From positions 12,834,001 to 12,898,000 of the forward strand of contig NC_092672.1 in the NCBI RefSeq assembly GCF_964355755.1: 64,000 bases of DNA. The letters run 5' to 3'. This document shows, one piece after another, positions 15,109 through 58,059 of this stretch. The position numbers and the translations under genes were made by a program. This DNA is from Antedon mediterranea (Eukaryota > Animalia > Echinodermata). Numbering within the stretch: the first letter of the stretch is position 1; each line of letters opens with the position of its first letter. A model generated the notes under the pieces. That model saw nothing but the letters and a program-made list of their open reading frames with translations. It did no database searches and was not told the origin of the DNA.

Positions 15109-15111
15109 GAT

Positions 15112-15172
15112 GACTACTGACGAATGCACGGTGAGCGAGTTAACGTATATATAGACCCAAACAGCCAATCAA
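15112..15172 (-). promoter_or_regulatory. Compact Pol II-type promoter: CCAAT box, TATATATA and CATT/TCAGT initiator just before the ATG (also present at about 9750-9810)
   Basis: Minus strand reads gATTGGctgtttgggtcTATATATAcgttaactcgctcaccgtgCATTcgTCAGTagtcatcATG. TATA-to-initiator spacing is about 28-35 nt. Confidence 0.55.
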
Positions 15173-15332
15173 CGTCCAGCTTGAATAAGCGGTGTTGACT
15201 ACCATTTGAAGATGATGCGTTGTTTTTTTGTTTTTTTTTTGTTCACGCTGCTGTTTTTCGTAATGCAATAAGAGTATCGATTAGAGTGTATTTGTGTACG
15301 TGTACATTGGAGAGAAAGAGAATGCTTTTGTC

Positions 15333-15734
15333 ATGCAATCTGTTTCCCGTATAGTGGCGAGAAGACCTAACAATTACCTGATTTCAGCTATACTCGTGAC
15401 TTTATTATGCTGTATTCCATTCGGTATTATAGGAATCGTGTACAGCGTAGATGTAAGTAATCTATTTCCTCTACAACCTCATCCCATCACAACTTTTTTT
15501 TATTTTTTTTAATCTATTTTAGTTTATATTCTTTTACTTTTACAGAGTTCGAGAAAGTTCGACTACGGTGACGGTGAGGGTGCAGCCAGATCAGCACGAT
15601 CGGCAAAGAGATGGTCTATTGCAGGATTGCTGTTTGGAATCATCATCATCGTCGTCGTTTGCATCATATGGACCTTGAACTCAAGTCTACCTAATCATTC
15701 CACTCACCCTCCTTCGTTACAAGACATCATGTGA
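15333..15734 (+). CDS. CD225/dispanin protein, copy 2; exons 15333-15452 and 15546-15734 (102 aa)
   Basis: Same as copy 1, but a 1-nt indel gives the C-terminus ...VVVCIIWTLNSSLPNHSTHPPSLQDIM*. Confidence 0.88.
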
Positions 15735-15987
15735 TTCAAGCAAGAGGCAGTTGAAAACATTTGTATTTGATAATACATATATAACAGCGTTGTTGTTGAA
15801 TGATTATGTTTTTTTTTTTCAAAAATAAATAATATGTGCATATAAATAATTTTTTCTGTCTTGCATTTTGTATGATCAGGTGTTTTGGTACACGCATTGT
15901 AATGTTGTGGTTGTTTTTTTTTTCTAAAGAATTATCGAACGAATGCTAAATGACCAAGTTTAATGCGTTTACAATAAAATACATGCA

Positions 15988-30961: not shown

Positions 30962-33660
30962 ATGTTTAGGCCAATTTGTCCTACTTGTACCATTCAATTA
31001 TCATCAATCAAAGAATATGTAAAGCATTCCAGAACTCATATTCACCATAGAAATGCAAGATTTCCTTGTTGTTTTCCAAGGTGTATCAGAACGTTTTACA
31101 CCTACAAAGGGTTGACATCTCATATTTCAAGAGACCACAGTGATATTCACTGTCAGTCACAAGTAGACTATAGAAATATTGGTGTTTATGTTTATTGTAT
31201 GTTTGATTTTTGTCGGTCCAAGTGTTCAGATGTTAAGGACTTAATTTCACATTTGAAGACTCACATAGCAAGTGGGTTGAAAGTGGATTGTCCATTTGAT
31301 CAATGCACAGGAAATTTTGGAAAAAAGTCTTCATTTTCCTCCCACATATCACGTTGTCACATGAATTATAGTGTTTATGATATAATGGCAAAATGTGTTT
31401 CCGATGGTACAACTTCAGCCCAGAGAAATGAACATGACAGTAGTGATGATGGACTTGTTCCTTTTGCTGACACAGACATTGATTATGCTGATTCTGAAAG
31501 TCACTCTATTGATGCAACAGAATACACACAATATATTGCATTGTTCTTAATGAAATTGCAGGGAAAGTACTTGATTCCTGAAACAACTATTCAGGTGATA
31601 GTTAATGAGTTGAATTTTTTACAGCAATGTTCTCTTGATCATATGAAGAAATGTATTAGAGCTACACTTACTAGGATTGGTACTGATATTGGTGTATCTG
31701 ATGAAGTATCCAACAATCTGTTTGATGATATAGTAAAAGGTGTGTCAGACCTGAGTTGTTCTTTGATGCCTTCAGAAGCTACTCAGGTACAATCCCCAGA
31801 ATGTGGTGTTCTTCGATCGAAATATATGAGACAGAAATACTACCAAAAAGAGTTTAGTTATGTAGATCCAGTGGAAATTGTGCTAGGAGAAGAGGAAGGT
31901 TTTAAATACAAATGCCACTATGTCCCCATACTTAAAACCCTAAAAATGTTGTATGATGATAAGTCAGTCCAACAGCATATTGTACCCATTGGAGGAGACA
32001 GAAGAGGTTTTGTTGATGTTCAAGATGGAAAAGTGTTCAAAGATAATATTTTTTTCACAGAAAATCCAACTGCACTGCAAATAATCATTTTTCAAGATGC
32101 ATTTGAAGTGGTTAATCCACTGGCCTCTGCTAGAACCAAGCACAAAGTACTTGGTATGTACTTGACTCTTGGCAACATTGACCCACGATGTAGATCCCAA
32201 ATTGATCCAATGCAATTAGTACTACTTTGCAAGGAAAAGTATATAAATAAGTTTGGAGACGATAAGGTTTTTGCTAGACTAATTGCAGACCTAAAAGTGC
32301 TAGAAAAAAATGGAGTTACACTAGCAAATGGTAATGTTGTCAAAGGTGCTATTGCTGCCATAGTTGGTGATAACTTAGGCTCACATTTTATAGGAGGATT
32401 TTGTGAAAGCTTTAACACAGAATATTACTGTCGTTACTGCAATAAAACAAAGACCCAAATCAGAGAAGGTTTTGCAAATAAGGAACAATGGCAATATCGA
32501 ACCCCTGACTCATATACCAGGGCACTTAATATGTTGGAACAGGAAAATGTCCAGTCATATGAAGGAATAAAAAGAGACTCTGTCTTCAACACACTATCAT
32601 ACTTCCATGTGGCTAACCCTAGCTTACCTCCTTGTTTAGGTCATGACATTTTCGAAGGGGTAGTTGACTATGACATGGCTTTGTACATAAATTATTTCAT
32701 TGGGAAAAAATGGTTCACATATCAACTGCTAAATGAAAAACTAAAAAGATTCAAGTTTGTTGGTAGTGATACTGCAAATATACCAGCTGCTGCAATCTCT
32801 AAGAAGAAAGATAAACTAGGAGGACAAGCTGTTCAGAATTGGTGTTATTTACGTTTTTTCCCCCTATTTGTGTTTGGCTTAATTGATGATACAGAAGACC
32901 TTGTTTGGCAGTTGGTTCTTAAATTGAAAGAGATTGTTGAACTTGTTGTTTCTCCCAATATCGATGCCTCACAAGTAGCCTATTTACGTGTCCTGATTGA
33001 AGAATACATCGATGACAGAAGGGAGTTATTCCCATCAAAACCTCTACGACCGAAACATCACTACCTGAGCCATTACCATTGGCACATATTGATGTTTGGG
33101 CCCCTCATCAGATTGTGGGGCTTGAGGTTTGAGAGTAAGCACTCCTATTTTAAAAGATGTGCTCGCTATGCTCAGAATTTTATCAACATCACATCAACAT
33201 TTGCTGAACGGCACCAATTGTTGCAAGCTTACTGTTTTCATGGACAGCTTTATCCTGATGATGTTATGCCACAAATATTCAGAAGGCTGTACAACATCTT
33301 GACACTAACATAACGCAATGGGTGGTAACCGATAAAGTATGTGTGTTTGGCACCAAGTACAAGAAAGGTCTGCTCATTATTGTGAAAACAAACGCCACTG
33401 ACTGGACATTTGGAAATATACTTCTTGCTTTGGTGTCTAACAAAGAGTCGGTACATTTTGTTGTTAGACTATGCAAATCAACTATACTGCGTGAATATGG
33501 CGTTTATGAAATTTCAAGTATGGACATTAGTTCCAGTGTTGTATGTGTTAAGTACAGTGATCTTCTGGATTATTATCCACTTTCCTCTTACAAAATAGGA
33601 GGTTCATACTTTGTCACTTTGAAAAATAAACCAATGGATCCATGCTACAGTACTGCTTAG
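30962..33660 (+). pseudogene. CMC/EnSpm-type transposase with N-terminal C2H2 fingers; one frameshift at about 33270
   Basis: FQDAFEVVNPL, GDNLGSHFIGGFCESF...CRYC, HDIFEGVV, PKHHYLSHY...FGPL..WGLRFESKH. The C-terminus continues in another frame (ATNIQKAVQ...FGTKYKKG...LLDYYPL). Confidence 0.88.
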
Positions 33661-33859
33661 AAATCCTTTACCACCAACATGCGTTTGTAAAACAAATTAT
33701 CCTAGAAAATGAAATATTTTATTTTGTAATGTAAATGTTCGTTTAAGTTACTTAATATTGATTTGTAAAATTCGGCTACCTATACTACTATCCCCAAAAA
33801 ATAAACAAACTGTGCCACAGATTAGGCATGTCTATTGTATTTTTGCAAAATAGATTGAC

Positions 33860-36800
33860 ATGATGGAAAGTGATGATTCTGATGATTATACTGTGATTTT
33901 GGGAAATTTGGAGACGACCGTGAAGAAGGTTCTACCTAATATAAAAGAGAGGAAACTGCATCAAATTTTAAAAAGATTAAAGGAGCTTGGTGCCGAAACC
34001 CCTGATGACTTACACATTGTACAAGATGATGACTTATTGGGGACATGCTCAACAATTGAAATCCGAAAGCTCACTACATCATGGAAGAAGGGTGATAGCA
34101 CAGGTAAAAGAGCAAGTAAAACTTACTTCTATCATAATTTTGTTTTAATGTGCACCGATATGATGTTTGACAAGCAGAATTATAATGTAATGGGGAACTG
34201 ACCGACAAAGCTTTTATAATAATATATTAATTTGCATACACTTGTTGTAATTCAAATTTTAAAAAGGACCGGGAACATATATTTTCCTAAAGTGTCAATA
34301 TAATAATTGTTATGGTCGACTGACATTTTAATAGGTCGGTCAAACTGCAAACCAGCTACTTATTTTGTTAGTAGGGCTTAAGAAGGCTTGGTATTAGTGC
34401 TACAGAACATTGAACAATTACCTTTGAAAGAGTTGTTCTTAATGGGTTTTTTCCATTTTCATTACAGAAACACAATGCCAGTCTCCAGAGCAACCAAAGA
34501 AAATGTCTAGAGTTTCATCATGGGTATCATCGCTATCGTCTCCAAATTCCTCGTTGTCATCTAATAGAAGTCTGGAAATCTGTGAAACTAAATATGACAT
34601 TCCCTGGCACAAGTTTTCACCAAAATTGATGGAAGCTTTAGAAAACAAAGTACGGCCACAACCAACCTTGCGACGAGAAATGATAAGAATTATTGTAGAT
34701 AATTTAAACCAGCCAGATGTTCCGTTGCCGAGAAAGAAAACTTTGAGTTTTATTGCAGAAAAGATAGTTGCCAAATACCCAGATTCCTTTATTGACAGAA
34801 TAAATGGAACTGTGGTTGGTTCAGGACACGAAAGTCTCCTAACTCAACTGGTATGCAAGGTTGATAATATTAAAAGACCATGTGAACTGAAACGGAAAAG
34901 AACTGCATTAACGGACACGACACCCAAAACTACTGATACTTACGGATGTATAAACTTTATGCCACTTGATTACCCAGAAGGCCAAACAGACAAAACACAA
35001 AATGAAATCAAAACAAATATGCAAGATACATATAAGACCAGCAGTGCAGCACAATCAAATGATATTCAAAAAAGTATGCATTTGACTTTTGTCTCTCAAA
35101 GGCATTCCATTAACAAGAAAGACTTTGTCCTTGCTGATTTCCTGACCGACTGGCCATATATCACTAAAGAAATAAATATGTCGCAGCACTTCGAGCAGCT
35201 TACTGGAGTAAACATTACAAACATGCTTACGGATGCTTTCAGCACTAAGGTACCAAAGTTACTGAGATATATGAAGTCGCTAGATGTTGAGAATATACAA
35301 GATGTAATGAAGAAGATAGAAGAAGCAGTGACCAGAAAAGAAGATAACACTCCCCAGGTTTTGGGAACAATACAAGTTATTTCAAGCTACTTCAATGAAC
35401 CATTTAATAGTTCTGTCATGTGTACAGAGGTGAGTATACAGTATTTCTAAGAGGTTTTAAAAGCATTTCAGAAATGTCTTCCAAAACTAAAAAGAAAGTG
35501 ATCCAGATGAATGTATTCACTAATTTTCAGAAAGAGTTGAAAATTCCTTCCAGTGTTTTATAAGGAATTTGTTTTAATTATCTTTTCTTAAATTGAGTGA
35601 ATATTGACACAATGTATTCGATTGGCACCCTTTTGGTAATACAGTATTCCCATAAAACTGAACTCAATGTTTGCAATTTAACACATGTGTTGATCGTAAA
35701 ATTGCATGCTATTTTCAGCCTACTGTGTATCATTTGACTACAAAAGATGACTAAAACAATATGAAATCTAATTATTATGTTAATTAAAAATTGTTCCAAT
35801 GTTTTATTCTAACAGACGTCTACAAGTTCAACCAGTTCACTGCAATTACCAGACACTCCATGTATTGTTGCTCATGGTAAGTATTTAGTATTAATTTTAT
35901 TTCTATCAACCCCTTTCGGGATAGAGAGCAGCATTAAGCTCAGTCGCGCAAATTGACGGAAGTCACTGTGTGTGCACTAAACTGTGGAGGTTACCTTATG
36001 TCCGGGGTTGTTTTGGCTGGAGGGTACCATCTTTTGAGAGACGACTTTTTAAAAATTCATTACCTTTTTTAAGATAGGTTTTCTTCAGCATATTTGTTAA
36101 GTTTTCTGCTATATTTTATGGCAAAACACCTCTCTTAAAGTTACACATTATAATGGAAAGGCATTTTGATGGCAAAAAGACTTAACTACTGAGATACGTC
36201 AATATGCATGTATTTCATAAAATCAATGTCTTTTTGTATGTGAATGTCATATAATTTACTTTATTTTAGGATGAAATTTAAACAAAATATTAAATAATAA
36301 TGATATACATTTTCAAATAGTCATAAACATAGGCCTATAGATAAAGAGTATTACAAAAAAGGTCATTTTTCTAAAAATGTCAATTTCTGTTGTTTTTAAA
36401 TGATAATTCATTCATGGCAACTTTAAAATTATTTGTAATATAGGCAGCCCACTTGAAGCCGAACAGTTTGAGATTACCATTGGGCAGAAGGTGGTAACAG
36501 AGGTCAAGAACCCCATCTCAGCTGTATGTTGTTGGTTTATGTCATATTATTGTTTCAATTTTGAATATGGAGAGAATGCTGGGGTAATGGAGTTTATTCA
36601 AAGGTAAGATTGTTTCACAAGATGATTCCACATTTATTACATTAACTTCTAAAAGTTGTGTACACTTTTTAGCATTATTTATGTATTGTTTTTACTGTAG
36701 TTAACATACAGGCATTAATCACTTTTGCTAATTTGACTGTTATGTAGACCTAAATTAATTGTCAATTTGTTATTTTTAGAGACATTCATGGTAACTGAAA

Positions 36801-39439: not shown

Positions 39440-39685
39440 ACTGCAAATTACCCAGGTACAGGTATTAATGTACCGTATTACATTTTAGATGATGAAAATG
39501 GTTGGTTTTAGTATGTTAATGATTATGTACAAAATTATTCTGTACACATACAGTCAGTGAATTGCATTTTATATGATGATAATTGTTGGTTTTAGATTTA
39601 AATGATTATGTACAAGTTATACTGTACAGGTATTAATGTACCGTATTACATATTAGATGATGATGATTGTTTTTGTTGGTTTTAG
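39440..39685. repeat. Minisatellite of about 85 bp inside the CMC element, split by later insertions (continues at 54306-54394 and 55284-55670)
   Basis: The unit TTGGTTTTAG...AATGATTATGTACAA...CATTTTAGATGATGA occurs on both sides of the P element and of MITE copy 2. Confidence 0.88.
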
Positions 39686-40687
39686 CATGGAGGTATAAAA
39701 AAGAAGGAGATTCAACTAGCTAATAGAGATTAAAATGCTGTGTGCTATATGAACTATGACTGACTTCCTCGGACGCTGATTGGCTCGCTTAAATGAGTTC
39801 AAAAAAGCCGCCTTCCGCTCTTAGTGGAGTCTGTTAGGGATATTTTGGTTCACTTTTTTCCAAAAGCACCAAATTTGGTATACAGGTTACCCACCCTATA
39901 CTAATTCAATTTTTGATGGGCGCCAAGCGAAATGACCCCTTGGGTCACCTAATTTGCATAATTTAAAATGGCGGACAGTTTCGCTCAAACACTCTATATC
40001 TCTGAAAATACTGGTCACAGAGAGTTGATTTTAAGTTCAAAATGTTCAGAACATAAACATTCCTATTTGCTCTAATTAAGTTTTTTTTATAAAAATGACC
40101 GGAAGTACCATTTTTAACCTTTGACCCATTTTTTATGGCATTGCCATATCTCAATAACGAGTTGTCGTAGAGACTTTATTTTGGTGTCAAATTGTTCAGA
40201 ATATATATGTTACTATTTAGTTTAATGGAACATTTAATCAAAAAATGACCGGAAGTACGTAATTTTGCCTTTGACCTTTATGGTGTATATTACAATTGCT
40301 AACTAAATCAATGTTAACATATTTCTCGATATCTCTAAAATTACTTGTCATAGAGAGTTGATTTAGGTTTCAAAATGTTCATAGCATAAACATTTCTATT
40401 GGCTATAATGAAGATTTTTTTCAAATAATGATCAGAAATATTACATTTGACCTTTGACCTGTTTTTCAAGACATTACCATATCTCATTATTAAGTTGAGT
40501 GGAAATTTCATTTTGGTGTCAAATTGTTCAGAAAGTGTATGTTTCTATTCACTCTAAAAAAAAATTTGATCAAAAAACTTAACCAGAAATAATTCTTTTC
40601 ACCTTGAAGTTCAAACATGAAATTTATAACCACCTCGGTAAAGATTCTATTCTATAAAAATAGAACACTACCTTGAGTTTCAACATT

Positions 40688-43600
40688 TTAGGCATTATGA
40701 GATTCATAATTACTACATCCACCTTCACACTTGCACAAACTTGTACATCTGACACCAGCACGAAAACATTTACACCTCCCAGCGCAAGTCTTGAGGCAGC
40801 CGCAGTGCATAAGTACAGCACATGCCACAGAAGCGTCAGTAAGTGTGGTCCACAGTGGCTTCCAGTTGTTTGAGTCATCTCTCTGCCAGCCCAGTCAGGG
40901 ATGTTCTGATGAGCTATGATTGCTTTTACTCCAATAAAAACTTGCTTGCAGTAACGCTCTCTTTACATGCTGGAATAATGCAGCTTGAGTTGGTGGTAGT
41001 TTTTCTAACGATTTTCTGCCAGTTATAAACATGTGATGCCTAGCTTCATTAACCTTTGAAAAGCCACACCCTTTATTGTACATAAGAACAATAAATCGTT
41101 CGATATCTCTCATGTGTTCGGATTCAATATCAAATGACAAAGGATGGTTGATGAGTTCTACAAGTGTCTTTGTTATAGTGGATGTACTATTCCATGTTGA
41201 CCAGGCAGTTTTCTTACCAATCCCAAGAAACTGTGAAGTTGTGTCGCATCCAGTTAGACTGTGAAAAAGCGGTAATGCAACACATCTTGTTGGCCCAAGA
41301 TTTAAAAAGATGGTATGAACAGGAATATCACGATAATGCTTTCCTGTTCCAAAGCCAACCCAAAGTTCCTTGAATTTAAGGGTCTCAAAAAAGTGAATTG
41401 CCAGGATCACAACATCACTATCCACTGTACGAATATACGCTGTAAAATGACCTTCTTTTGCTGCATGTGACAGATGTAAGATAATCCTGGTGTCTGCCTC
41501 AGAATGGTTACATGACTGAAGAGATGATACATCACACTCTCTATTTGAAAGAACGGCATCAAAGCGATTACTTATAAGAAGTTTCCCACACATGTCATTT
41601 TGAACTATTTGTTCACTGATGAAGGGGAACAATTCCTTCTTGTTTTCTTCATTCTTTAGAAATCCATTCCAGTCTTGTTTTGGAATTTTTGTGTTTCCAT
41701 CACCAACTTTTGTTCGAGGACCATTTCCACGTCGCTGTTGCGTCAACAATTTAAGGTTGTTACATTCTGGGTAATTGTCCCATACTGCATCAATTCGTTG
41801 AGTATCTCTCTTTAATTGGGCCTTTAAGAATGGTATGATGTTGTACTTCACATACTCATTGAAAGTATTGACATTTGTGGGACGTACCATATGGACTACT
41901 GCTGCCATATCAAGAACCACAACTGATGTTTTTATAACATCAGGAGGTTGGCAGATGGTAGATTTATCAAGACACTGAAGAATGTCTGATTTCGTCCCAG
42001 ACCTAAGTAATCCTTGGTCCGCCAAGCTTGGTGGCTCTCTAAGATTTTCAAATTTAAAAAATTCAGCCAAGTCAGCATCTGGACGAGATTGGATGGACAG
42101 GAAAAGTTGCGTTACTAATGACATATTATGCTTTAGTATCCCCTTGTCATTATTGCCTTTTTTCTTGATGTTTGGTCGATTAGCAAAGGTTAAAATGTTA
42201 TTACGTTTGATCGTATCGGTAACTGGTACTGTTGCCTTTTCTAGTCGTTCAGTAACATACGTGTTATAAAGAGATTGGCCAGTTTCACGTATTTTGGAGA
42301 GGGATCTGACAACTGCACTTTCCATGACACTGTGAGTATCAAGTGCATAGAGTTCGTGACTTGTTTCACAGAACGGATTGTTGAGCTCTTCCACCACCTT
42401 AACAAACGAAATTACATCATTTCGAAACATTACTTGAAAGCTGTGTCCTTCCTCATGATGAGCATTGGAAACTGATGAACTGATGTCTGTTTCGAACTCC
42501 TTAACAATCCGTGAACAGTCTGGTCCAGTCAACATAAACAGGGTAAGATTGTCAGGGTTCTCGTAAAGACCAACTGCTCCACCATGTTCCTGAAGTCTTC
42601 TGTTTGACTGTTCATGAGATTGGTCCTTGGCAATGAGGCTAAACTTTTTTGCTGATTTTTGCACAACAAAGTTTCCCTTCATAAACTCTGCATAAATGGC
42701 CGGGTGAGTATCTGGTAAAGTAACCATGTCACGTACATGAACTGGAAGCCAACGAGCATAGTTCACATGGTCAAGGACATGGAACCAACCACAGAGTTCA
42801 TCACAAGATTGAACATATAACTCAAAATTTCCCTCTCGAAGAGAACGTATAAAGCGGGCCATCATTAGTTCTAGATCCATTATCATCGACCAAAATTGAA
42901 ATTGAGGCACAGAATCTGAATTTCGACGATTCCACATTTCGAATGGCTCAGTTGGGCCCACTACACCGGTGCTGTATTTTGTGTATGCAGTTTGTTTCAG
43001 AAGGTAAAGTGACATTAGTGTTACTTGATGTGCATACCTAGTACGTTTGATTTTATGTTCATTGAGCACAGATTCTGCACGCCCAGATGTTAAAACTTCT
43101 GCCTGAGAAAGGACCGTTGCCCATCCTGAATCGCGGAGCAGCTTTCCTATCATAAGATGCATCTTGTCTTCAATGTGCAATGCACCCATCATAGCAACCA
43201 ACTTGCTTTCTCCTAAAGTATCAGGATATTGCCACTGAATTCGTTTTATGATCGCATACAGTGGCTGATCAGCACCAAGTACAGATGTCTGACCCTGGTT
43301 TATAAACTTGGTACTTTTCATTGTCAATTCCATTGCGTGTTTCATTGAAGATGCACACGCAGCCTTATTTGGAAAGAGAGGGTATATACCGATCTCGGCA
43401 GGTGGTTTTACCGATTCTTCACTTGCCATCCTTGAATTATATCCCGACCAAGTGATAGTATCAGAATTTGTAAGTGTTTCCTTCTTTAAAACACCCATGG
43501 TATGTGCCATCCAAACTTCATCTTTAACTTTAGCACCGTGTAAATTGTGTTGAGGTCTGCATCTTCTACTATCATCATATAATGGTGCAAATACATTTGC

Positions 43601-45346
43601 ATTTGTGAGATGAATTGGAGTATGTATTACATAGTCATCTGGTAGTTGAGGTTTCTTTGTGTCTATTGGATTGATACATATAGGTGGACGTTTCTTTCCT
43701 TGATTGTCATGAGAAAGATGGTTCGTAACACTGAGGGCATATCCATGAAACTCATCTTGTGAGAAGTTTCCTTGTGCTTTGCTATCTATATTATCTACAT
43801 CGTGTGTGGTGAATACATTGAGACGAATGTTGGTAGGCAAAACTACCCCATCCTGAAAAAAAGTTAATGATTAATGTTTAAAAGCGGCCTAGTAATTACA
43901 TTATACAGTATTGGATTTATTATACATTAAAAACATACATATAAAACATACATATAAAACACTGATAGAATTTACCTTAGCATGGCGAGCACAAACGGCA
44001 CGTGCAATGTCTTTCTTCACTTCCATTATGCGACTATATGATACTGAAAGACCATGTGCATGATCAATATCGATCTGCTTTCTGTTTCTTCCTTGACCGT
44101 GTAGTTTAAGTCCGTGATATAAAGGAAAGGGCGTTTCTCTTTCCTTATTGTGTCGTATTTCAGCAACTTTGCATACGTGATGCGTACCTTTGCTAGCATT
44201 AAATATTAATAACTGCGAAATATTGCGTGCAATCTTCTGCCTTTTATTTACATTTACTCCATCCTCGTTTCTTTGAAGAGGATCTGGGCCCTGAAGTACT
44301 ATATTGAGAAAACTCATCAGCTCTTCACTTACAGCAACTGTTTGGCAATCAGAAGAGAAGGAGCCATTGAAGGGCGGCTGGTCCCGCAAACAAAGATTGT
44401 GCATTATTACAGCAGCCCTCATCAACGTTAAAGCATCTTCTTGACATAACTGTGACTTAAATGCTTTTTTAAGTTCCTCCACTACTTTTGAATTATTAGA
44501 TATGAAGATATCTTTTCTACCATATTTTTGTGTAGAGAATTCTTTCCATTCAGGAAGAAAGCTGAGAAGGTGGTCTTTAAATCTGGTTGCATGTGGATCC
44601 TTTTTATTTCGACATGGGTGTCCATTATCACACATTAGCTTCTGATAAATTTCACGCAGCTCTGAAAGCTTAAATACTGTACTTTTTGCATTTTCGATCA
44701 TGGTTACAATTTGAGCACATATTATAGAATCAAATGGTAAAATTATTGCAGGTGAAACATCTTTCGATCGCTCAGTAGACCGGGCAGAATCTCTTAATTG
44801 TGTATAACACTGACGATGGTAATAAAAATCAGCTGCATGGGCGTCAGAAGCTACAGTTAGTCTACCAAGCAACTGGAAATTTTTATTAATTTTTGCCCAA
44901 CACTTTAGATTAACATCAACAGCATCTGTTTCCACCTTATGAAGGTTGGTTGGAGATTTCTCCTCGCAGATTACACAGCATATTCCTACAGTCAAATAAT
45001 CTGATGATCGAAGTTTCTTTGGACTACTATGTGTTGTAATACTAGCGTCATTGTTTAGCTTGCTACTTGCCCGCTTGACACGTGAGCTGCTAACAAAGCT
45101 TCTGCACATTTTATGATACTTTGCTTTATGTATTTTTAAAGTTTCTGCAATACCTGACCCATCATCTAACTGACTAAGTGTCACATTGATACCAGCAGGA
45201 AATGTATTTGGGTTTATCTGACTTAAATTGTTTATATCTTTCTCTAGTGATAACATTCCATTTTCAGTCGGTGTTTGTAAAGGTTGTTTATTTTTTTGTT
45301 GACAAAGGCAACAGAGATCCCAATTCAAATTGTTGGTAGAAGACAT
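40688..45346 (-). pseudogene. Academ transposase with XPG/PIN-like nuclease and Cys-rich tail; exons 45346-43976 and 43852-40688
   Basis: DNID, FHG, DQPLYA, GALHIE, NYARW, DQSHEQ, HSEADTRIILH, DSDV, GCDTTS, LPPT..AL..HVKRA. A premature TGA at 40895-40897 separates the tail CGCLKTCAGRCKC...CTSLCKCEGGC. Confidence 0.9.
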
Positions 45347-46305
45347 TATTAATATTTATTATCCTATAGTTAAGGTGTAAAAATCCTAGGAAAAAAAATA
45401 CAAAGTTGTTATCAACATGATTTTAAGAAAGCAAAAATTGTGTATACTGCCTTTCGCCTAGGCTAGGCTAGGCCCAAGCTAGGTGTTCTACCATCTATAG
45501 AAGTATACGCACCTAGGCCTTTGAGTTTGAAATATATTATTTGCAAAGTATAATTAATGTCTATCTACTAAAGATGAGTATTCTTTGTCTATACAATGTC
45601 TATCATTTGCATGTATTAATATGTACTCACAACTAAATAGGACAATCTATTTAACTTCATTCAGTGCAGTAACCATTGTAACTATGCAAGTAGCCATCTT
45701 TGACATGTGCTCAAAAGTTTTAGATTATATGTTGATAGAGGGCGTAGTTCAGTCAAAATAATATAATTATGGCTTACCTGAGAGCTACTTCCGGCCATTT
45801 TTTGGCAAAATCTTTCATTATACAGAATAGAAACATACTGTACACTTTCTGAACAATTTGACACCAAAATGAAATTTCCACGGCAACGCAATAATGAGAT
45901 ACGGTAATGTCAGGAAAAACAGGTCAAAGGTCAAATGTAATATTTCTGATCATTATTTGAAAAAAACCTTCATTATAACCAATAGAAATGTTTATGCTAT
46001 GAACATTTTGAAACCTAAATCAACTCTCTATGACAAGTAATTTTAGAGATACAGAGAAATATGTTAACATTGATTCAGTTAGCAATTGTAATATACACCA
46101 TAAAGGTCAAAGGCAAAATTACGTACTTCCGGTCATTTTGTGATTAAATGTTCCATTAAACTAAATAGTAACATATATATTCTGAACAATTTGACACCAA
46201 AATAAATTTTCTACGACAATTCATTATTGAGATATGGCAATGCCATAAAAAATGGGTCAAAGGTTAAAAATGGTACTTCCGGTCATTTTTATAAAAAAAA
46301 CTTAA

Positions 46306-47536
46306 CCCATTGACCCCTAAGTTTATTTTGCTCCCCTGGGACCCAAAAAGCATATGTCATATAATTAACCCTAACTTTTTTTCTAAACACAGACATTAAA
46401 AAAATTAAAAAACAAAAATAATGCAAAGGACATTTTATTTCCAAATATGTTTTCAAATTTGTGTTACAACTTATTTTGGCGGAGTATGGATTATGCAAAT
46501 TTTAGAAATATTTTAGGAAAATTATTAAAAATTTGTAATTTATCTTTGACTACCAAATGCACAAAAATTAATAAATATTTCATAATAAAACTCATCTCTT
46601 CATCAGAACCTATTTCTTCTCTTCAAAATAAGACCAAACTTGACCATTATGAATGACCGGTTTCGAAATTATGAAGAAATTAGTAGACTGACTCATCCGA
46701 CGATGACCATATGGGGCCTAGGCCTATCGGGAGCCGCCCCGAGAGCGTCCTCGCCGCTGTTTGTTCACCGGGAATGTTAAAAAAAACATCCCGAAAGCGA
46801 CTTGGAATTCGCGATTCCCACGCGCACCGGCATCCCTCGGGAGCTTAGTCCGCTGTTTTAGACGTGTAGCTTGCAGAAAATTTGACGAAAATGCGTCGAA
46901 AACTTATGAAATTAAAACAAGTTTGGTATCAAAATGTTTGTCAAAAGTTATGCTTCAATAAACTGACCTTTGCGCAGAGTTTGAACAAATATTTCATGCC
47001 CATAATGCATCTGACATGTCAGGGTTCATATTACAATCAAAGGTAAACAATATGGCGCGGCCCTTGTGAGGACATCTTCACGACTTTTCTCCGGTAGAAA
47101 AATCACATTTTTACATGGAAATATGACGATTTAGACACTGTAACTGATACATAATCTTTATTTATTATACATTTATTGTATACAAGCTTCAAAATAGTGA
47201 TTATTAGAAATAAAGATGGATTTTAGACGATTTTACGTTGTATGTCTAGGCCTAGATTCATTCAACGCGCCTGTCGCGTTTCGAACAGCGTGCTTCGAAA
47301 AACGGTTATATTTTCGAATTTTATTTTCAAACTAACTTCAACAATTGTTTTTATATATTTAGAAGCATATTTTTAAAAAAAAAGTTGTGAGTATTTTGTA
47401 TAATTATTTGTTACGATTCATGCACAGCAAACTGCGCATGTAAATTCGATTTACTTTTTTTTTGTTGAAAATTTGTTTACAATGACCTTGACTTTTAACC
47501 TTTTGAGCGCTTTAAGCGCTTATCGTGGTGAATCGG
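46306..47536. mobile_element. Non-autonomous piggyBac-type element inserted in the Academ TIR
   Basis: TTAA on both sides; imperfect TIRs CCCATTGACCCC / GTGGTGAATCGG. The opposite Academ TIR shows the empty site with a single TTAA. Confidence 0.88.
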
Positions 47537-48820
47537 TTAATTAGAGCAAATAGGAATGTTTATGTTCTGAACATTTTGAACTTAAAATCAACTCTCTGTG
47601 ACCAGTATTTTCAGAGATATAGAGTGTTTGAGCGAAACTGTCCGCCATTTTAAATTATGCAAATTAGGTGACCCAAGGGGTCATTTCGCTTGGCGCCCAT
47701 CAAAAATTGAATTAGTTTAGGGTGGGCAACCTGTATACCAAATTTGGTGCTTTTGGAAAAAAGTGAACCAAACACCCATATTTCATCCCTAACAGACTCC
47801 ACTATCTGCCACGCGGGACGTCGCCTTTCATCGTTGTCAGTGCAGCCGGTCGTTCATACGCTTGTTACAAGGCCCCTTAGCATTTAAGTCGCCCCGAACA
47901 TGTATTTTAAACACTTTTTTGGTTGTATTTGCTTCTAGAGAGGGCTTGTGGGGTCAGAGTTTAACTTATCCGAAACCATATTGAATTTAGAAAGCCATTA
48001 CATTTTATTAGAAGAAAATCGAGTAATATTTACCAAAATAACCGTAAGTTTAAGATTTTATGGTTTTTATATTATATATCGATAACACGATAACGTCGGA
48101 AAATGATTTTTTTTAGTAAATATTATTTAATAATTTAGGTGTCAAACCGTGAAAATCCCGACCGTGTACACGCGTGTATATTTTCTCTACATGCATTGCA
48201 ACATAGGGCTTTTTTCTCGGCGAGTCGCTTGTTGGTTCATCAAGTGTGACGTAATCAACGGGTTAGGAAGATAATGCTGGGGCTAGGCCTAGAGTATCCT
48301 TCTTGTTTGATATTATGATTCGTGAACCTATTCAACATTGTTATTAATATAATTTATAGTTATAGGCTAATTTATATTATAATTTTAATACAATGGTGAA
48401 CACATTTTAGTAAGACAGAGTAGGCTAAGTAAAGTAAAGTAAGGCTACTAGTACTACTAAACTAGCTAGCTAGGCCTCTACACTACTAAGTCTAGGCCTA
48501 GACTACAGTACAACTAGTTGGTTAATATGGTTTGTTTTTGTCAGATAATTTTTAATTAATTTAATTTTAGTAGTTTTTAACCTACCATAGGCCAAAATTA
48601 AATCTGGTAAACTGCAAGTTACATAAGAATTTTAAGATATTTAAATGTCATAAATGTCTTGCAAACATTGAATTGGTAACCAAAATATACAGAATAATTA
48701 ATGGTAATACCAGGTAATTTAACTTTATTTTACAATATTAGCAATAAGTACATTTTTTTTAAATGCCAATGATTTTTTTTATAATTTCTAAATTAATTTA
48801 ATTTCAGGAAATTGTAGAAA

Positions 48821-51800
48821 ATGGAACGGCACAAATGTTGCCTCCAGGATCTCTGTAGATTATGTGGTAAAAAAAACTGCTCTAAAATAAATCTATTGAA
48901 ATCCAAGTTGTGCTATGCAAGAGATATCAACCTTTCATTAGGAGTTGATGTGTTGCAAGATGTAGATGGCATCCATCCCAACTTCATCTGCAACTGCTGT
49001 AAGATGAAATTACATCGTTGGCGGACTTTCCGCAATAAGAAAAAAGACAAAGAAATATCAATTCATCTTTTGCCATTTGCTGAACATTCCGATGATAATT
49101 GTTCTGTATGTGCATTTTCTGTTCCATTGATCAATCTCAACAAAATTCTAGCAATTGGGAAGAATCTTGGCTTTGTAGCACAACTTGGAACCGACAAAGT
49201 CACATTCATTAAGATAATTAATGATCTTCCTATTGTTTGTGTGCATATTTATGCCACATGCTCATGGAAAGTAAATGTTTTGTTGAAGGATTCTACAAAT
49301 AGATGTGCAAAATTTCCTGAAATTCTGACAGAAGATAATGCAGAATGTTTATTGACATGGATATGGAAATCTGCAATTTGCTGTGGAAACACTGAGTTCA
49401 TCCAACTTTGTCGCAAGCAATCACCATCAAACCTAGCAGTGTTTAATAGTATTTCTGGATCAACAGTGGCAATGGAAGAGGACACAAATGGTGAAAGAAC
49501 AATAAGGCACGTGAACTGCTGTATATTTGTTGAGGGAAATCGCTGTGAAGTATGCACAATGTATAGAACAACGTTAATGTCTAAAAGGTCAAGAATTAAT
49601 GATCAAAAAGCAGTAGACATTAGTTCTCATGCACGAAATGATCAGTTAAACAATGATCAGTTAAGGAAAAAGTTGATGTTGGTGTCAAATGACAGGAAAA
49701 ACTTACAGAAAATGGTTAAAGACCTTAAAGAAAAAGTAAGGAAGTCATTTGAAGATGATTCTAGTCCATTGCAAGAAACAATGTCTGAAGCTCTAAAGAC
49801 AATAATGACAACACATACAGAAACTGTGTCAGAACAATTTAAGGAAGGTTCTCCACAAAGACTACTATGGGATGAACAAGTGGCTGCCAATAAATCATCT
49901 GCAACAGGTCGTCGTTGGCACCCAGCAATAATTCGTTTTTGCTTAGCGTTGCACATGAAGTCTACTGCAGCTTACCGTATTATTAGGAACTCTGGTTACT
50001 TGACATTGCCACATGAAAATACCCTAAGGAACTACACACATTTTACTGATGCAAAGTCTGGTTTTAATCCTGATGTTATCCTGCGGATAAAGCATGATAT
50101 ACATTTTGATGCGTTACCTAATTTTAGGAAAATTGTTTCATTAAGTTTTGATGAAATGAAGATAAACGCAGGTCTTGTGTATTCTAGCAAATCGGGTAAT
50201 CTTGTTGGATTCTCCAGTATGGGATCAATGAACGAAGCCATGGACAATTTTGCAAGAGAGTTGGACTTGGACAAAAATAAACAACCAAAGGAAGCATCAC
50301 ACATGTTGTCTCTGATGGTTCGGGGCATGTTTATGCCTTTACATGAAACATTCGCACATTTCCCCACTCATGGCTGCAAGAGTTACAATTTATATTGGAT
50401 CATATGGAAAGCTGTGACTTGGCTAGAGTATGCAGGATTCAGAGTTTGTGCTTTCGTATGTGATGGTGCAAGTCCAAATCGAAAATTTTACAGACAGCAT
50501 GGAACATCTGTTTCTTCAGAAGTTGTCTTTTCAACCATTAGTCCATATACGAAAAGGAATATCTATTTCATTTGCGACACTCCACACTTGTTAAAGACTA
50601 CAAGAAATAATCTCGAAAACTCTGGATTTAACTCAAAATCAAGAAACTTGCATGTGAGTTATACATTTTAATATTTTTTTTTCATACCAGTTTTTACTAG
50701 TGAAAACACAATTCCGCCCCCCCCCCCCCCCCCAACTTTATGCTACAGTGGCAAGCTCTTCATTTTTTTTCCTCTTTTTTTTTGCAGTTTAATCATCAAG
50801 ATCTAAAGTGGAATCAGTTGCTCACCTTGGTAGAAGAAGATATTGGATGTGGTAGTGGCCTAAGAAAACTCCACAAAATACGCCACGAACATTTATACCT
50901 TACGCCAAGCTTAAGGATGAAAGTTAAACTAGCTGTCCAGGTAATTTTAGTTTGTTTGTTTAGTTTTTAGTAATCTGAGACCCAATGTAAATTTAAATTG
51001 ACTTCTTTCTTGTTGTCTAGGCAAATACATTTTTTAAAGTTTTTATCATTCTCCATTTATCTTAGATCCTTAGCAGCAGTGTTGCCCATGCGTTGGAAAT
51101 TCAAGGCAGACATGACACAAAAAGTCTAATCCACTTCATAAAGTACATGAACAAGTTTTTTGATTGTCTTAATGTTAGTCGTGTTGAGAGACGAAGAAAC
51201 AACATAAATGAGAACCTGTTAGAATACAGAAGTGTGGATGATTCAAGATTAAAGGTACAGATTTGTTTTTCAAATTATTAAAGAATTTCATATAAATTAT
51301 CCTAATACACCTATAGTCAACCAAACATGAAGATCGGTTTACCCATGGAGTTATATTTTTATACCGCCATGATTTAACTGAAAAGTTCAGCCAAGATTTA
51401 TACTTACCCCAGTGAATTTGGGGTATACACCTAAGTGTATCCTTGCCATTTGATTGGTTGATAAGGTATCATGCGACATGCATTTTTTCAATCCATCCTT
51501 GCATTCAGGTAGTATATTGAATATTTTATTCATGGAATGGGCTAGCCCATCTTTCAATGGTTACTCATGAAATCATTTTTACTGGCTTTTAGTGGCTTGT
51601 AGACGATTTCCTCGGCTTTCTTAATACATGGGAGAATCAATGTTTGGAAACACCAAATACAACAGCAGCAGAAAAGAAAAGGATGTGCCTAAGTCGTGAA
51701 ACACTTGACGGACTAAGAATAACAGGTTATTTTTTTTCTTTTCATTTATGTTTAGCTATAGATTGTTTGATAGATCATAGGTTGCAAAAGCACAATCTAA

Positions 51801-52272
51801 TAAGTTCTTTATCTTTCAGTGTATTAAAAAGTAAATATAAACCAGGGCTTGCGACCCCTGTCTTCTAGCCTGGCACGTCATCAAATCCTGTTATTCCTAA
51901 TGATTGTATTGTTAAAAACTATATTAAATCAAATGTTAATACAATTAATGTTTATTGTGTTCCTCTACAGTTAACTCTTTTGTGAAACTTACAAAGGAAT
52001 TGCTTGCTACTGATGGTGTGGACTATGTGTTGAGTGAAAAACTAAACCAAGATCCTCTTGAGGAATACTTTAGCAAACAGAGAGGATGTGGAGGAAGAAA
52101 TGAAAACCCAACAGTTCATCAATTCCAACATAATGCATTGACACTACAAGTTGCAGGAGCCAGAAGTGTAACTGGTTCAATCCACTCCAACACCAGGAAG
52201 TCTGGATTTAGCATAGACAGTACCCCATTCCCAAAAAGAACGAAAACCATAAATAATAAAGTAGAAATATAA
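48821..52272 (+). CDS. P-element/THAP9-family transposase, 5 exons (48821-50653, 50788-50940, 51066-51254, 51593-51725, 51971-52272), 869 aa; RAG1-N/Chapa-like Zn module instead of THAP
   Basis: All junctions are GT-AG and in frame, with no stops. Motifs RWHP..IRFCL, LSFDEMKI, CDGASPN, CDTPHLLK..RNN, RMKVKLAVQ, FFDCLN, NQDPLEEYFSKQR..GG.NENP. Confidence 0.93.
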
Positions 52273-52351
52273 TAATAATTTCATGAACACCTTTTATGTA
52301 TTTACTGAACTGTATAGAAAATATTTATATTGTGAATAAATTGGAAATTCT

Positions 52352-54014
52352 TTAAGTTAAGTCATTATTTTTAAGTTTCTTTCTTAAGGGTTTTTCACCC
52401 TTCTTTCCGACTGATGCATCTTTCTTTTTTCTTTCCATCATATATACGGTGGTAAAAGCCTTACATCTGATGTCTATATAACATCCAATAACTTTGTTAA
52501 ATAAAGTAGACACTACTACCTCATTAACATTATCCCCAATTAACCGTTCCCATGCTAATTTAATGACAGGCGAGTCAAGGGCTGAAGTAAGTTTGTCCTT
52601 TAAATTTAAACCACAAAGTTCTGTAATTTTTGTGGAGGACAAAATGGGTTTTACCTCGCATTCTAGCCGCCTAAAAAATAAAAATGAATCATTATTTATT
52701 TTAAATAGGCCTCCTCTGTTAATTTTTGTAATCCAGTCTTTACTATAATCTAAAAATGACATTTTATCATTGTTGTCTTCAATTTCTAATTTCCTTAATA
52801 CATCAATAGATAAATTAGCTAGATTGTTATTTGGAAATCTTCTGTAAAAGCGTAGTAATTTATGCGGAATATAGCCAGCCATGTATCTTAATGTTTGTTG
52901 CTCTTCCTTGGTTACCTCTACCTGTGGCGGTTCATTTGCAGCAGCATTCTCATATGGCCCAATTTGCCTTAACAACAACTCTTCTACAATTGCCTCGCTT
53001 GCCATTTGGAATAAAAAATTTGCAGCAATATCACAGTCAACTAAACCTAAAAATTGATTTGAGTTTTCATTTATGCGAAAAGTATGAAAGTTTCTACACA
53101 CTGCGTCTAACCCTTCTGATGCAGTTCTTTTAGTGTTCGCTACAGTTGCTGTCTCCCATAAAGTATTGACAAGTTTGTTTGCAACATCCTGAATGTCTTT
53201 TGACCGCAACTCGACCACTGCATTGTTTATTGCTGTTGCCATCTTTGGATTTAACTGCAGCATAGGGTCTTCAAGAACTTTGTTAAATGAGTGATTAACA
53301 ATTTCCAAAGAATCAGCTAATGCATTTTCAAGTAGATATTGGCTCTTCCATTTTATCGGCTTCTTTTTTGCAGCTGTGAATTATTTTAAAATAAATCATA
53401 AATTAAAATGTTTTTCCCCTAAAAAGTTAAATTCAATCCGACTATCCCTAATATTTTAATTTCCTGTGCAAAATACAATCAATGTAGTGGGCGACGTAGG
53501 GCTGAAATATCTATTCCCTGTATTTCGGTAATTTTAAATTTAATTATTTGGAAAATGTGTCAACAGCAAAATCCATGAATAATTATAAAATGTACAGTAG
53601 TACTAGCCTAGGCCTAGGTAGTAAATAGCCTTATTTTCTATTAGAGTAATTAATTAGTTAGGCCTAGGCCTATACCATCTACGCTCATTAATACTTACCT
53701 TTTTCCGGTTTATTGTTAGTAGTTGATTCGCTGGGCCTACTAGCGTTCGTATAATTGCTTGGCCCACTAGGCTCAGAACCAATAATACACTTGTCGCACT
53801 TCCACGTTTCTTCGGCGGCTAGGCCTAGGCCTGAACTCACGCAATTCGTATGGAACCATCTGACTTCGCAATCTTTACCGTTGCAGGCTATTGTCTCTTC
53901 CGTCGATGGACAGTTACATATACAGATATTTTTCACTTCTTCGGTGCCTACTTCGGTATTTATTTCTTCAAATTCTGCTAATAATTCTTTTGTTAACAAC
54001 TCATCAAACTCCAT
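52352..54014 (-). CDS. PHD-finger protein with a P-transposase C-terminal-like domain, 2 exons (54014-53699, 53373-52352), 445 aa
   Basis: Exon 1 has a C4HC3 PHD, CIC...IACNGKDCEVRWFHTNC...WKCDKC. The phase-1 GTAAGT...ACAG intron joins in frame to the ORF with LRYMAGYI...WITKINRGGL. Confidence 0.85.
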
Positions 54015-54394
54015 CACATCAATTTTTGTAGAATAACCTCCATTGAATAAAAGAATACAGTGTTGCTTTTTTGCACTGCCGCGCGCTTGCACACGACGCT
54101 CATGTGCTCGAGGTCAAGTGGTTTGCTTCCGGTTTTACAATTAATTATACGACCTTTTCGTGACATATTGACCTTGTACGCCACGCAGTGCTTATGTGCG
54201 ATACCGTTTATAATTACTCCCTTATCTGTTAAACATTCGGCGGCTGCAATGAATACATCAAAGGAGACAAGCTAGTTGAATCTCCTTCTTTTTTATACCT
54301 CCATGGTTTTAGTATGTTAATGATTCTGTACGAAATTATACTGTACACATACAGTCAGTGAATTGCATTTTAGATGAAAATGGTTGGTTTTAGT

Positions 54395-56507: not shown

Positions 56508-58059
56508 TATGCTTACAATATAGGACATTTTATTCTTTTTAAAATGAAGACAACCAACCTACCAACTATTATTTAAAATATTATGTTTAATTTTGTAGCT
56601 TTTAGGAGACAACACAGAGAAGCACATACGAGTACAGAAGTGTCTTCACCTCCAACTTCTCCTCATTCAAGGACATCACAGTCCTACAAATCGATTTTCT
56701 CTAGGAATGAAAACACTGATGACAGTAAGTGTATTTTAATATCTGTGTGTTTAATATTTTCAACGTGCGAGTTTTTGGAGCTGATGGACAGAAAGAGCAC
56801 CAGACGGAGGGGAGTAGCATGGTAGTATATCTACTAAAATCACCAGCGCATTTGGCTTTTCTGCATTATCCGCATATAAATGTGAAACTATTAAAACGAT
56901 TATTACAGTATTAATAATACCTAACCATACTATAAATTATGCTTGTCACAAAGGAAATCAATGCAAATAGAATTAAAAAATTAAACCAACGTGTAAACTT
57001 CTAACAAAATACATTATACTGTACATTCTGTTTTGTTTTATTTTTTTAGGTTTTAAAATCAATGTCTTGATGAAACTGGACACTATAATAAAAAATCAGA
57101 ATGAACAGCTTCAAATAATAAAGAATCAAGCAATTCAAAAAGGTGCATTAGAAGATGCAGAAATTGAAGATGTTGTGCCTCAACCACTAGAAAGCAAAGA
57201 AGAATTGTACTCACTTGATGAAAAATTGAAAGATGCGGCATTTAGGAAGAACATGGTAAATCTTAAAAATTCTATTTGTACCGTATGTTATAGTGTAAAT
57301 TTATTTCCTACAGTGATCCCATTATATACTCATATTGAGGTTATAGAAATACAAGGAGGTCGCGAACAAGCAGGAATACGGTTTACACAGCAAAATTTGA
57401 AATTCTAAGCAAGAAAAAAAAATCTTGTTTTAAGAAAAAATTCTTAAAATAAGTATTTTTTTTTCTTGTCAAGATTTAAAATTACTTAAAACAAGAAATA
57501 ATTTTCTAGAAAAGACACATTTTCTTAAATTAAGTTTTGCAATATTCTTAAAAATGCTTATTACAAGAAATATTTTACTTAAAATAAGGAGTCAATATCA
57601 TTCTCTTCTTATTAAGAATAGTTTTGCTTAAAACAAGATTTGAAAATACTTAATTTGAAAAGTATTTTACTTAAAATAAGAAATCAATATTATATTTATC
57701 CCTATCAAGAATAATTTTTCTTAAATCAAGATTGATGAATTCTAAAAATTACTTAAAACAATAAATATTTTTCTAGGTAAGACAAAGTTTCTTAAATTAG
57801 GTTTCGCAATATTCTTAAAAATACTTATTTTGAGAAATGTTTTACTTAAAATAAGAAGTCAATATCATACTATCTTATCAAGACTATTTTTGCTTAAAAT
57901 TGAGATTCGCAATATTTTTAAAAGTACTTATTTTGAGAAATGTTTTAATTAAGATAAGAAGTCAATATCATACTATATCCTATCAAGACTATTTTTGCTT
58001 GAATTGAAGTCAATTCTATTTTAATATTTTTAAAAATACTTATTTTGAGAAATGTTTTA

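What the first reader, a model, noticed from the sequence alone, without database searches (positions are those of the whole stretch)
39686..54305. Two-gene P-superfamily transposon with a RAG1/RAG2-like layout
Seen: one pair of perfect 36-bp TIRs with a 7-bp TSD encloses two stop-free spliced genes arranged tail to tail, with 79 bp between their stop codons. One is an 869-aa P-type transposase and the other a 445-aa PHD-finger protein. Known: canonical P/THAP9 elements encode a single THAP-transposase, whereas ProtoRAG and the RAG locus pair a transposase with a convergent partner, and vertebrate RAG2 has a PHD finger. Inference: this is a two-component P transposase that independently combined a RAG1-N-type zinc module with a chromatin-reader subunit. 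The catalytic core is P-type rather than Transib/RAG, so I read it as convergence or module shuffling, not RAG ancestry. I cannot tell whether such families are already catalogued.
Basis: partly seen in the sequence, partly recalled or inferred. Interest (0 to 1): 0.9.

Follow-up and report, generated by a model that had tools for sequence, protein, structure and literature searches.

The report
Split two-gene P transposon, feather star
This P-type jumping gene has a cutting enzyme that stops before its usual tail domain, and the second, facing gene encodes a protein predicted to fold like that missing tail (plus a histone-reader-like finger) that likely docks back onto the enzyme, so the element is likely a transposase split in two rather than a look-alike of our antibody-gene recombinase.

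Summary
Observation confirmed: perfect 36-bp TIRs, 7-bp TSD, 869-aa and 445-aa spliced genes, 79 bp between stops. Both proteins match Antedon mediterranea RefSeq models, with a second near-identical pair on another contig. The partner is not RAG2-like. Its residues 257-423 superimpose on the C-terminal domain (CTD) of Drosophila P transposase (Z 11.3, 118/118 residues), and that domain is exactly what the transposase lacks. The layout is a lineage trait: 27 of 80 related metagenome loci have the partner convergently downstream, none fused, and one shows 32-bp TIRs and a 7-bp TSD. A complex model passes (0.64 against best control 0.01, partner fold uncertain), with a new helical domain docking on the RNase H domain. 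The PHD is ING-like and swappable with C2H2. The N-terminal zinc module is RAG1-N/Chapa-like at family level. Verdict: split P transposase, a new variant. I found no paper on it (Repbase not searchable). This scan noted the same layout three times on other DNA. Whether the partner helps or represses transposition is untested.

The parts
39679..39685 (+). left target-site duplication GTTTTAG
39686..39721 (+). left 36-bp TIR (5'-CAT...)
39822..47804 (-). nested separate DNA transposon, probably AcademX-like (TAG..CTA termini, 3-bp TSD TCT, long subterminal inverted repeats); not part of the P element
   Evidence: form without it seen; family name rests on TSD length (PMC10045372 passage) and recalled motifs; Pfam gave only a weak CXC hit, PDB none
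40895..45346 (-). ORF of the nested element, ~1,443 aa, one intron, ends at a premature stop before a Cys-rich CXC-like tail
48821..52272 (+). P-superfamily transposase, 869 aa, 5 exons; HTH, RNase H (D444, D548, E800), GTP-binding insertion; ends 69 aa after E800, no CTD, no THAP
   Evidence: RefSeq XP_071945700.1 / XP_071952173.1
48830..49111 (+). N-terminal zinc module (CRxCG...HP...CxxC...H..CxxC), Chapa/RAG1-N/zf-AD-like, in place of THAP
52352..54014 (-). partner gene, 445 aa, 2 exons (54014-53699, 53373-52352)
   Evidence: intron skipped exactly in run X5
52421..52921 (-). partner residues 257-423: homolog of the P-transposase C-terminal domain, followed by a basic tail
52955..53341 (-). 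partner residues 117-245: family-conserved helical domain, predicted docking surface for the transposase RNase H domain
53787..53927 (-). ING-like PHD finger (residues 30-76) after an acidic N-terminus
   Evidence: ING3 PHD, E 1.3e-8; Pfam PF00628 only E 0.025, below cut-off
54270..54305 (-). right 36-bp TIR
54306..54312 (+). right target-site duplication GTTTTAG

Best explanation
A recently mobile 6.6-kb P-superfamily cut-and-paste element has a transposase that ends before the C-terminal domain, while the convergent second gene encodes a protein predicted to fold like that domain, which likely docks on the transposase through a new helical domain and would act in trans as an auxiliary DNA-contacting or tuning subunit. 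Shown: the ends, both genes, the missing CTD, the fold match, and family-wide linkage. Inferred steps: (1) the 869-aa protein binds the ends (zinc module and HTH instead of THAP), cuts with D444/D548/E800 using GTP, and inserts with a 7-bp stagger, by analogy to Drosophila P; (2) partner helices 142-234 pack on RNase H helix 520-538, replacing the covalent linker (model only); (3) the CTD fold and basic tail then sit where the Drosophila CTD contacts transposon and target DNA; (4) the swappable N-terminal finger (PHD here, C2H2 in others) may bias where in chromatin this happens (weakest step).
For: Fold: AF2 model (pLDDT 80.5) against 48,161 PDB chains gives 6p5a_B (residues 617-734) at Z 11.3, rmsd 2.3, 118 of 118 aligned, the only Z>=8, next 6.8. 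Foldseek prob 0.99 but E 0.23. The family profile hits the same chain with three collinear motifs, E 0.12. Complement: 11 of the 43 hits have the catalytic-E motif, all 11 end 31-132 aa after the motif start, and none of the 43 scores on the partner's CTD part. The best 150 of 1,071 partner relatives are all 133-535 aa. Linkage: of 80 loci kept (best of 467), 28 have a partner hit; 27 are downstream on the opposite strand, 1 upstream on the opposite strand, 0 on the same strand. With >=2 kb downstream and the transposase matched to residue >=800 it is 16 of 18 loci (12 of 14 clusters at 90% DNA identity); the upstream control is 1 of 19. L036 has 32-bp perfect CAT-TIRs and a 7-bp TSD around both genes. 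Pair distances correlate (Mantel rho 0.61, p 0.0001, 22 pairs). Partner dN/dS is 0.18 and 0.22 in the two informative pairs of four. Second genomic copy: identical transposase on two contigs, with near-adjacent accessions for a 443-aa partner. Complex: score 0.64, best of 3 controls 0.01; the mark was reached by 51 of 78 solved and 2 of 108 mismatched microbial pairs, and by 39 of 65 eukaryotic pairs without a like complex and 2 of 126 unrelated; runs share >=64% of contacts; partner pLDDT only 42-48. The interface uses the helical domain, which did not match the solved P structure, and includes its most conserved helix (F201, H202, Q228); interface columns are modestly more conserved (p 0.03).
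Against: No binding or transposition is measured. The partner's fold is uncertain in the complex run, and the CTD part itself was not confidently placed. The transposase side of the predicted interface is not more conserved than the rest of its domain (p 0.94). A preprint reports that the CTD is dispensable for Drosophila P transposase and that its removal raises THAP9 integration by ~60% (10.64898/2026.08.31.747927, passages), so the partner need not be required. 2 of 18 well-flanked loci (L007, L035) show no partner and L010 has it upstream. Z 11.3 is under the ~13 that the tool advises for helical bundles. Distance correlation shows co-inheritance, not contact. Two of the ING cage-position residues are replaced in this PHD (Y->I30, M->T41; alignment, cage role recalled).
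Confidence: 0.62

Rival explanations
1. Same origin (separate CTD gene) but the partner is a repressor: it binds the transposase or the ends to damp transposition, a built-in copy-number control like the 66-kDa/KP repressors of Drosophila P, possibly helped by antisense overlap of the two 3' ends.
For: CTD removal increases THAP9 integration. A spliced partner contig is present in run X5 and one X5 contig runs from partner exon 2 across the transposase's last exon (51993-53375). Only two full copies are on record in the genome annotation.
Against: Retention under purifying selection in most loci of a very diverged clade (median transposase identity 37%) fits a positive role at least as well. 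The Drosophila CTD contacts transposon and target DNA (PMC7776569 passage), and the basic tail is kept.
Confidence: 0.25
2. One reading: an unrelated chromatin-reader subunit recruited independently, a functional RAG2 analogue whose essence is PHD-H3K4me3 reading.
For: The PHD is ING-like; some relatives keep all cage-position residues (P0004, P0020); the layout is convergent as in RAGL elements (PMC7204232 passages).
Against: The conserved core is the P CTD. There is no kelch propeller. A PHD is found in 5 of 150 by motif scan (about 10 counting Pfam hits and by-eye cases) and C2H2 in 6 of 150; among the 24 proteins >=400 aa it is 4 and 4, though many entries lack their first exon.
Confidence: 0.07
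3. The second gene is a passenger or decayed fragment: an inverted piece of an ordinary one-gene P transposase, or a captured host gene, with no role for the element.
For: Homology to a transposase tail could be read as rearrangement debris; 52 of 80 loci show no partner hit (most are too short).
Against: Intact, spliced, own start exon and an extra conserved helical domain; same orientation in 23 distinct locus clusters; dN/dS about 0.2; relatives from a sea anemone, mussels, echinoderms, a hemichordate and amphioxus.
Confidence: 0.04

Closest known systems
Drosophila P element transposase (PDB 6P5A/6PE2)
   Same: HTH, RNase H with GTP-binding insertion and DDE triad (Foldseek E 1.4e-23; Pfam PF21787/8/9, PF12017); CTD fold; TIR of similar length (31 bp there, PMC7776569), starting CAT (recalled).
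   Different: One gene there, two convergent genes here; THAP replaced by a Chapa/zf-AD-like zinc module plus a ~150-aa extra domain; TSD 7 bp, not 8; the CTD carries an added helical domain and a PHD.
Vertebrate THAP9 / zebrafish Pdre
   Same: P-superfamily core with a helical CTD of unclear, possibly regulatory role (preprint 10.64898/2026.08.31.747927).
   Different: CTD fused and THAP present. The preprint passages I read mention no stand-alone CTD genes (0 hits for 'standalone'; the 5 for 'separate' are unrelated).
Galileo (P superfamily, Drosophila)
   Same: P superfamily with 7-bp target duplications (implied in a PMC3573991 passage).
   Different: Long foldback TIRs and a single transposase gene.
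RAGL / ProtoRAG / TransibSU and Chapaev
   Same: Convergent two-gene layout inside TIRs; N-terminal Chapa/RAG1-N zinc fingers (PF12560 in relatives); a PHD in the partner.
   Different: Core is P, not Transib (RAG1 fold hits E>=3e-5 against 1e-23 for P); TSD 7 not 5; partner is a P CTD, not a kelch propeller. Kapitonov & Koonin 2015 (PMC4411706 passage) state that the Chapa domain was known in no other transposable elements.
Other two-protein DNA transposons (Kolobok + KolX; Harbinger + Myb, recalled)
   Same: Accessory gene travelling inside the TIRs (PMC9587614 passages).
   Different: Their accessory proteins are unrelated folds, not a detached domain of the superfamily's own transposase.

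Membership tests
P superfamily | RNase H DDE core with GTP-binding insertion and D/CxxH signature | tested here: met
   PF21787, PF21788, PF21789 above cut-off; D444 68/69, D548 70/70, E800 44/46 conserved; D586xxH589; 6pe2_A E 1.4e-23
P superfamily | TIRs with 7-8 bp TSD | tested here: met
   36-bp TIR, 7-bp TSD; L036 32-bp TIR, 7-bp TSD
canonical P/THAP9 (single gene) | N-terminal THAP domain | tested here: not met
   no THAP family listed for any of 21 proteins at E<=0.05; THAP motif 0 of 43
canonical P/THAP9 (single gene) | CTD fused behind RNase H | tested here: not met
   ORF ends 69 aa after E800; CTD fold is in the second gene
P superfamily | GTP-dependent excision with 17-nt staggered ends | not testable with these tools
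   biochemistry needed
RAGL/Transib | RAG1/Transib-type core | tested here: not met
RAGL/Transib | RAG2L kelch beta-propeller partner | tested here: not met
   model is helical; best fold match is the P CTD
RAGL/Transib | 5-bp TSD | tested here: not met
   7 bp at the true termini
Chapa / RAG1-N zinc module | PF12560 match and CRxCG..CxxC..H..CxxC motif | tested here: inconclusive
   motif present here and in 21 of 43 hits; PF12560 above cut-off in 6 and below it in 5 of the 20 other proteins, absent for this protein, which scores zf-AD 25.3 bits, below cut-off 28
ING-type H3K4me3-reading PHD | C4HC3 scaffold and aromatic cage | tested here: inconclusive
   scaffold and W53 kept, Y->I30, M->T41, D->N45 (roles recalled)
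AcademX (nested element) | 3-4 bp TSD and nuclease-bearing long ORF | tested here: inconclusive
   3-bp TSD met; nuclease domain not detected by Pfam or PDB; the Academ paper was not held

The most novel reading that the evidence does not exclude
A widespread, unrecognised animal lineage of two-subunit P transposases: a CTD-less enzyme with RAG1-type N-terminal zinc fingers plus a separately regulated CTD subunit that docks through a new helical domain and carries plug-in PHD or C2H2 readers that steer integration in chromatin. The two-gene state may even be older than the fused Drosophila/THAP9 form.
Probability: 0.3. Interest if true: 0.82.

Novelty: new variant of a known kind. Interest (0 to 1): 0.62.

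Why it matters
P is a textbook one-gene transposon, and its CTD has no settled function: it touches DNA in the cryo-EM structure, yet a 2026 preprint finds it dispensable or inhibitory. A natural lineage that makes the CTD as a separate, conserved protein lets this be tested by adding or omitting one gene, using an intact, recently copied element. It would also give a family to more than a thousand 'uncharacterized' invertebrate protein clusters, place RAG1-N/Chapa zinc fingers outside the Transib/Chapaev group, and offer a modular handle (swappable reader finger) on target choice.

Tried and rejected
No whole genome was held, so copy number and the second locus's ends were not inspected; its adjacency rests on accession numbers. 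The word-based search found only the second genomic copy of the partner. The 'longer' search covered only 938-2,675 aa and found nothing, so it does not test fused forms of 750-930 aa. Single-sequence PDB search of the partner core gave nothing significant. Pfam on 146 family members: PF12596 (P CTD) only in 5, all below cut-off. Profile comparison of partner against transposase family: no homology, probability 1.5%, so the partner is not a duplicate of the enzyme core. Viral contigs: 0 relatives. ESM Atlas: no usable hit. TIR/TSD search in 23 loci and 18 loci: only L036 convincing; the L061 and L076 hits enclose 12-20 kb and are probably other elements or chance. dN/dS was uninformative for L043/L075 (1.8, very few changes) and saturated for L017/L022. 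No RNA holder was listed on record; X5 is only guessed to be RNA. Transposase introns were not seen skipped in any laid contig, so transposase splicing rests on GT-AG sites, the identical RefSeq model and intronless relatives such as L036. Contig depths were not used to rank genes. Rejected: RAG ancestry, RAG2 analogy by origin, and the nested ORF as a third gene of the element. Literature: 9 full-text searches showed no listing describing a two-gene or split P element. Repbase Reports, Dfam and subscription journals were not searchable, no supplements were read, and bioRxiv supplements were closed.
Full report
Observation. The coordinates hold. The termini 39686 and 54305 are perfectly complementary for 36 bp and flanked by GTTTTAG on both sides. 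The insertion interrupts a local repeat whose intact unit near 39500-39570 has the 7-mer once. Five GT-AG exons on + give a stop-free 869-aa protein, two exons on - give 445 aa, and the stops are 79 bp apart. Both equal RefSeq models of the feather star Antedon mediterranea letter for letter. The same 869-aa sequence is on two contigs (XP_071945700.1, XP_071952173.1), with partners XP_071945706.1 (445 aa, 39-Mb contig) and XP_071952175.1 (443 aa, 32-Mb contig), which points to a recent second copy of the pair; I could not view that locus. In run X5 (RNA by the tool's guess only) one contig skips exactly the predicted partner intron, 53373 to 53699. Contigs of a second organism also bridge the transposase's last exons and the partner.

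39822-47804 is a separate 7,983-bp transposon with 20-bp perfect TAG..CTA termini, a TCT duplication and a ~1,443-aa ORF that stops early. The form without it is seen in 2 of 4 runs. A 3-bp TSD fits AcademX (PMC10045372, passage), but the family name is otherwise recalled. The P element proper is 6,634 bp.

The transposase. Pfam gives the P-type HTH, RNase H N and C parts and the GTP-binding insertion. The AF2 model (pLDDT 88.9) matches Drosophila P transposase at E 1.4e-23 and RAG1 only at 3e-5 or worse. D444, D548 and E800 are conserved. There is no THAP. The N-terminus has a CRxCG...CxxC...H..CxxC module found in 21 of 43 hits. PF12560 (RAG1 N-terminal) passes its cut-off in 6 of the 20 other proteins scanned, is sub-threshold in 5 more, and is not listed for this protein. 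Kapitonov & Koonin (PMC4411706, passages) knew this Chapa domain only from the Transib/Chapaev group. The protein ends 69 aa after E800, and all 11 of 43 hits that reach this motif end within 31-132 aa of its start. In Drosophila the CTD follows here (residues 617-734 resolved).

The partner. It belongs to a large family: 1,071 cluster representatives at E<=1e-3, the best 150 all 133-535 aa. Named members come from Ptychodera, Branchiostoma, several echinoderms, Exaiptasia and Mytilus. A profile of 138 members hits chain B of 6P5A, the P CTD, weakly but with three motifs in order (E 0.12). The AF2 model's residues 257-423 align to all 118 residues of that chain (Z 11.3, rmsd 2.3), the only Z>=8 among 48,161 chains, next 6.8; this Z is below the tool's caution level for helical folds, and the agreement with the sequence hit is what makes it convincing. 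Residues 117-245 form a further conserved helical domain with no clear match. The PHD resembles ING PHDs (E 1.3e-8) but has I and T where ING has Y and M (cage role recalled). Relatives carry a PHD, a C2H2 finger or neither (motif scan 5 and 6 of 150; 4 and 4 of the 24 proteins >=400 aa). There is no kelch propeller, so the RAG2 parallel fails.

The layout is a lineage trait. Of 467 metagenome stretches with a related transposase the best 80 were kept. 28 of 80 have a partner hit at E<=1e-3: 27 convergent downstream, 1 upstream on the opposite strand (L010), none on the transposase strand. Most misses are short contigs. With >=2 kb downstream and a transposase matched to residue >=800 it is 16 of 18 (19 of 23 at 1.5 kb), against 1 of 19 upstream; after clustering at 90% DNA identity it is 12 of 14. 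L036 is a complete 5,440-bp example with 32-bp CAT-TIRs, a 7-bp TSD and a C2H2-type partner, the only convincing end pair among 23 loci tried. Over 22 pairs (21 loci plus the window; three near-duplicates and loci with short partner pieces dropped) transposase and partner identities correlate (rho 0.61, p 0.0001), which shows co-inheritance only. Partner dN/dS is 0.18 and 0.22 in two of four pairs; the others were uninformative.

Mechanism. The Drosophila CTD hangs on a flexible linker, sits between RNase H and the other subunit's GTP-binding domain, and contacts transposon and target DNA (PMC7776569, passages). A detached CTD needs a new tether. The complex prediction for transposase 340-869 with partner 110-445 scored 0.64 against a best control of 0.01. 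That mark was reached by 51 of 78 solved and 2 of 108 mismatched microbial pairs, and by 39 of 65 novel and 2 of 126 unrelated eukaryotic pairs; runs agree in >=64% of contacts; partner pLDDT was only 42-48 and the alignments were not used. Halves of split genes can pass by likeness to a solved structure, but here the confident contacts are from the partner's extra helical domain (142-234) to RNase H helix 520-538 and neighbours, a part absent from 6P5A. Partner interface columns are somewhat more conserved than the rest (p 0.03), the transposase side is not (p 0.94). I therefore favour a docked auxiliary subunit (0.62). The main rival is a repressor (0.25): a 2026 preprint (10.64898/2026.08.31.747927; abstract, introduction, part of methods and selected passages read) finds the CTD dispensable in Drosophila P and inhibitory in THAP9. 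Whether the lineage arose by fission or the one-gene form by fusion is open; I had no fused sequences to root a tree.

Novelty. Nine full-text searches (listings only, plus passages of PMC4411706, PMC12730594, PMC7776569, PMC10045372, PMC7204232, PMC3573991, PMC9587614, and 10.1101/2021.09.26.461848, where no term matched) showed no description of a two-gene P element. Repbase and Dfam could not be searched, and with a family this common, two-ORF P entries may well be deposited there; supplements were not read. Three unchecked AI notes of this scan report the same split layout in other genomes; I recorded my reading before seeing them, and they are not independent support. This copy adds an intact, recently duplicated element, a spliced partner, a PHD variant, the RAG1-N-type zinc module and a predicted docking domain. 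Verdict: real, a new variant of the P superfamily, not a RAG analogue; interest 0.62.

Noticed in passing
window 39822-47804: Nested Academ-like element; its termini and the 46050-47800 region are very high-depth in all four runs laid (many non-autonomous relatives), and its ORF stops just before a CXC-like Cys-rich tail.
   Followed up: partly
window 51993-53375 (run X5 contig): One contig runs from partner exon 2 through the 79-bp gap over the transposase's last exon, hinting at overlapping antisense 3' ends; strand is unknown from contigs.
   Followed up: no
window 48818-51459 vs 51904-53580 (run X1): Contig depth over the transposase middle (58) is half that over the partner and last exon (115), a weak hint of deletion derivatives that keep the partner gene.
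   Followed up: no
window 39684-39686 (run X5 loose ends): Contigs carry the same terminus with other flanks, suggesting further insertions or MITEs sharing this TIR.
   Followed up: no
L010:4371-8617: A relative with the partner upstream on the opposite strand (head to head) rather than tail to tail.
   Followed up: no
window 49120-49600 (transposase residues ~100-260): A well-modelled beta-rich domain with conserved Cys (C187, C233, C242, C245) between the zinc module and the coiled coil; no Pfam match.
   Followed up: no
window 51427-51473: Short high-copy repeat inside transposase intron 3.
   Followed up: no
window 30827-35450: 828-aa ORF with C2H2 fingers and EnSpm/CMC-like motifs (recalled) followed by same-strand ORFs; probably another DNA transposon.
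   Followed up: no
window 3971-5848 and 15964-20301: Two Ty3/gypsy-like gag-pol fragments (by recalled motifs).
   Followed up: no
window 8988-10141 and 14401-15509: Near-identical duplicated block 5.36 kb apart with unidentified ORFs (272 and 239 aa) and a neighbouring 303-aa coiled-coil-like ORF at 13537-14448.
   Followed up: no
window 25488/56508 and 26358/63509: Identical repeats of at least 300 bp, 31-37 kb apart, with a duplicated 142-aa ORF (25951-26379, 56977-57408).
   Followed up: no
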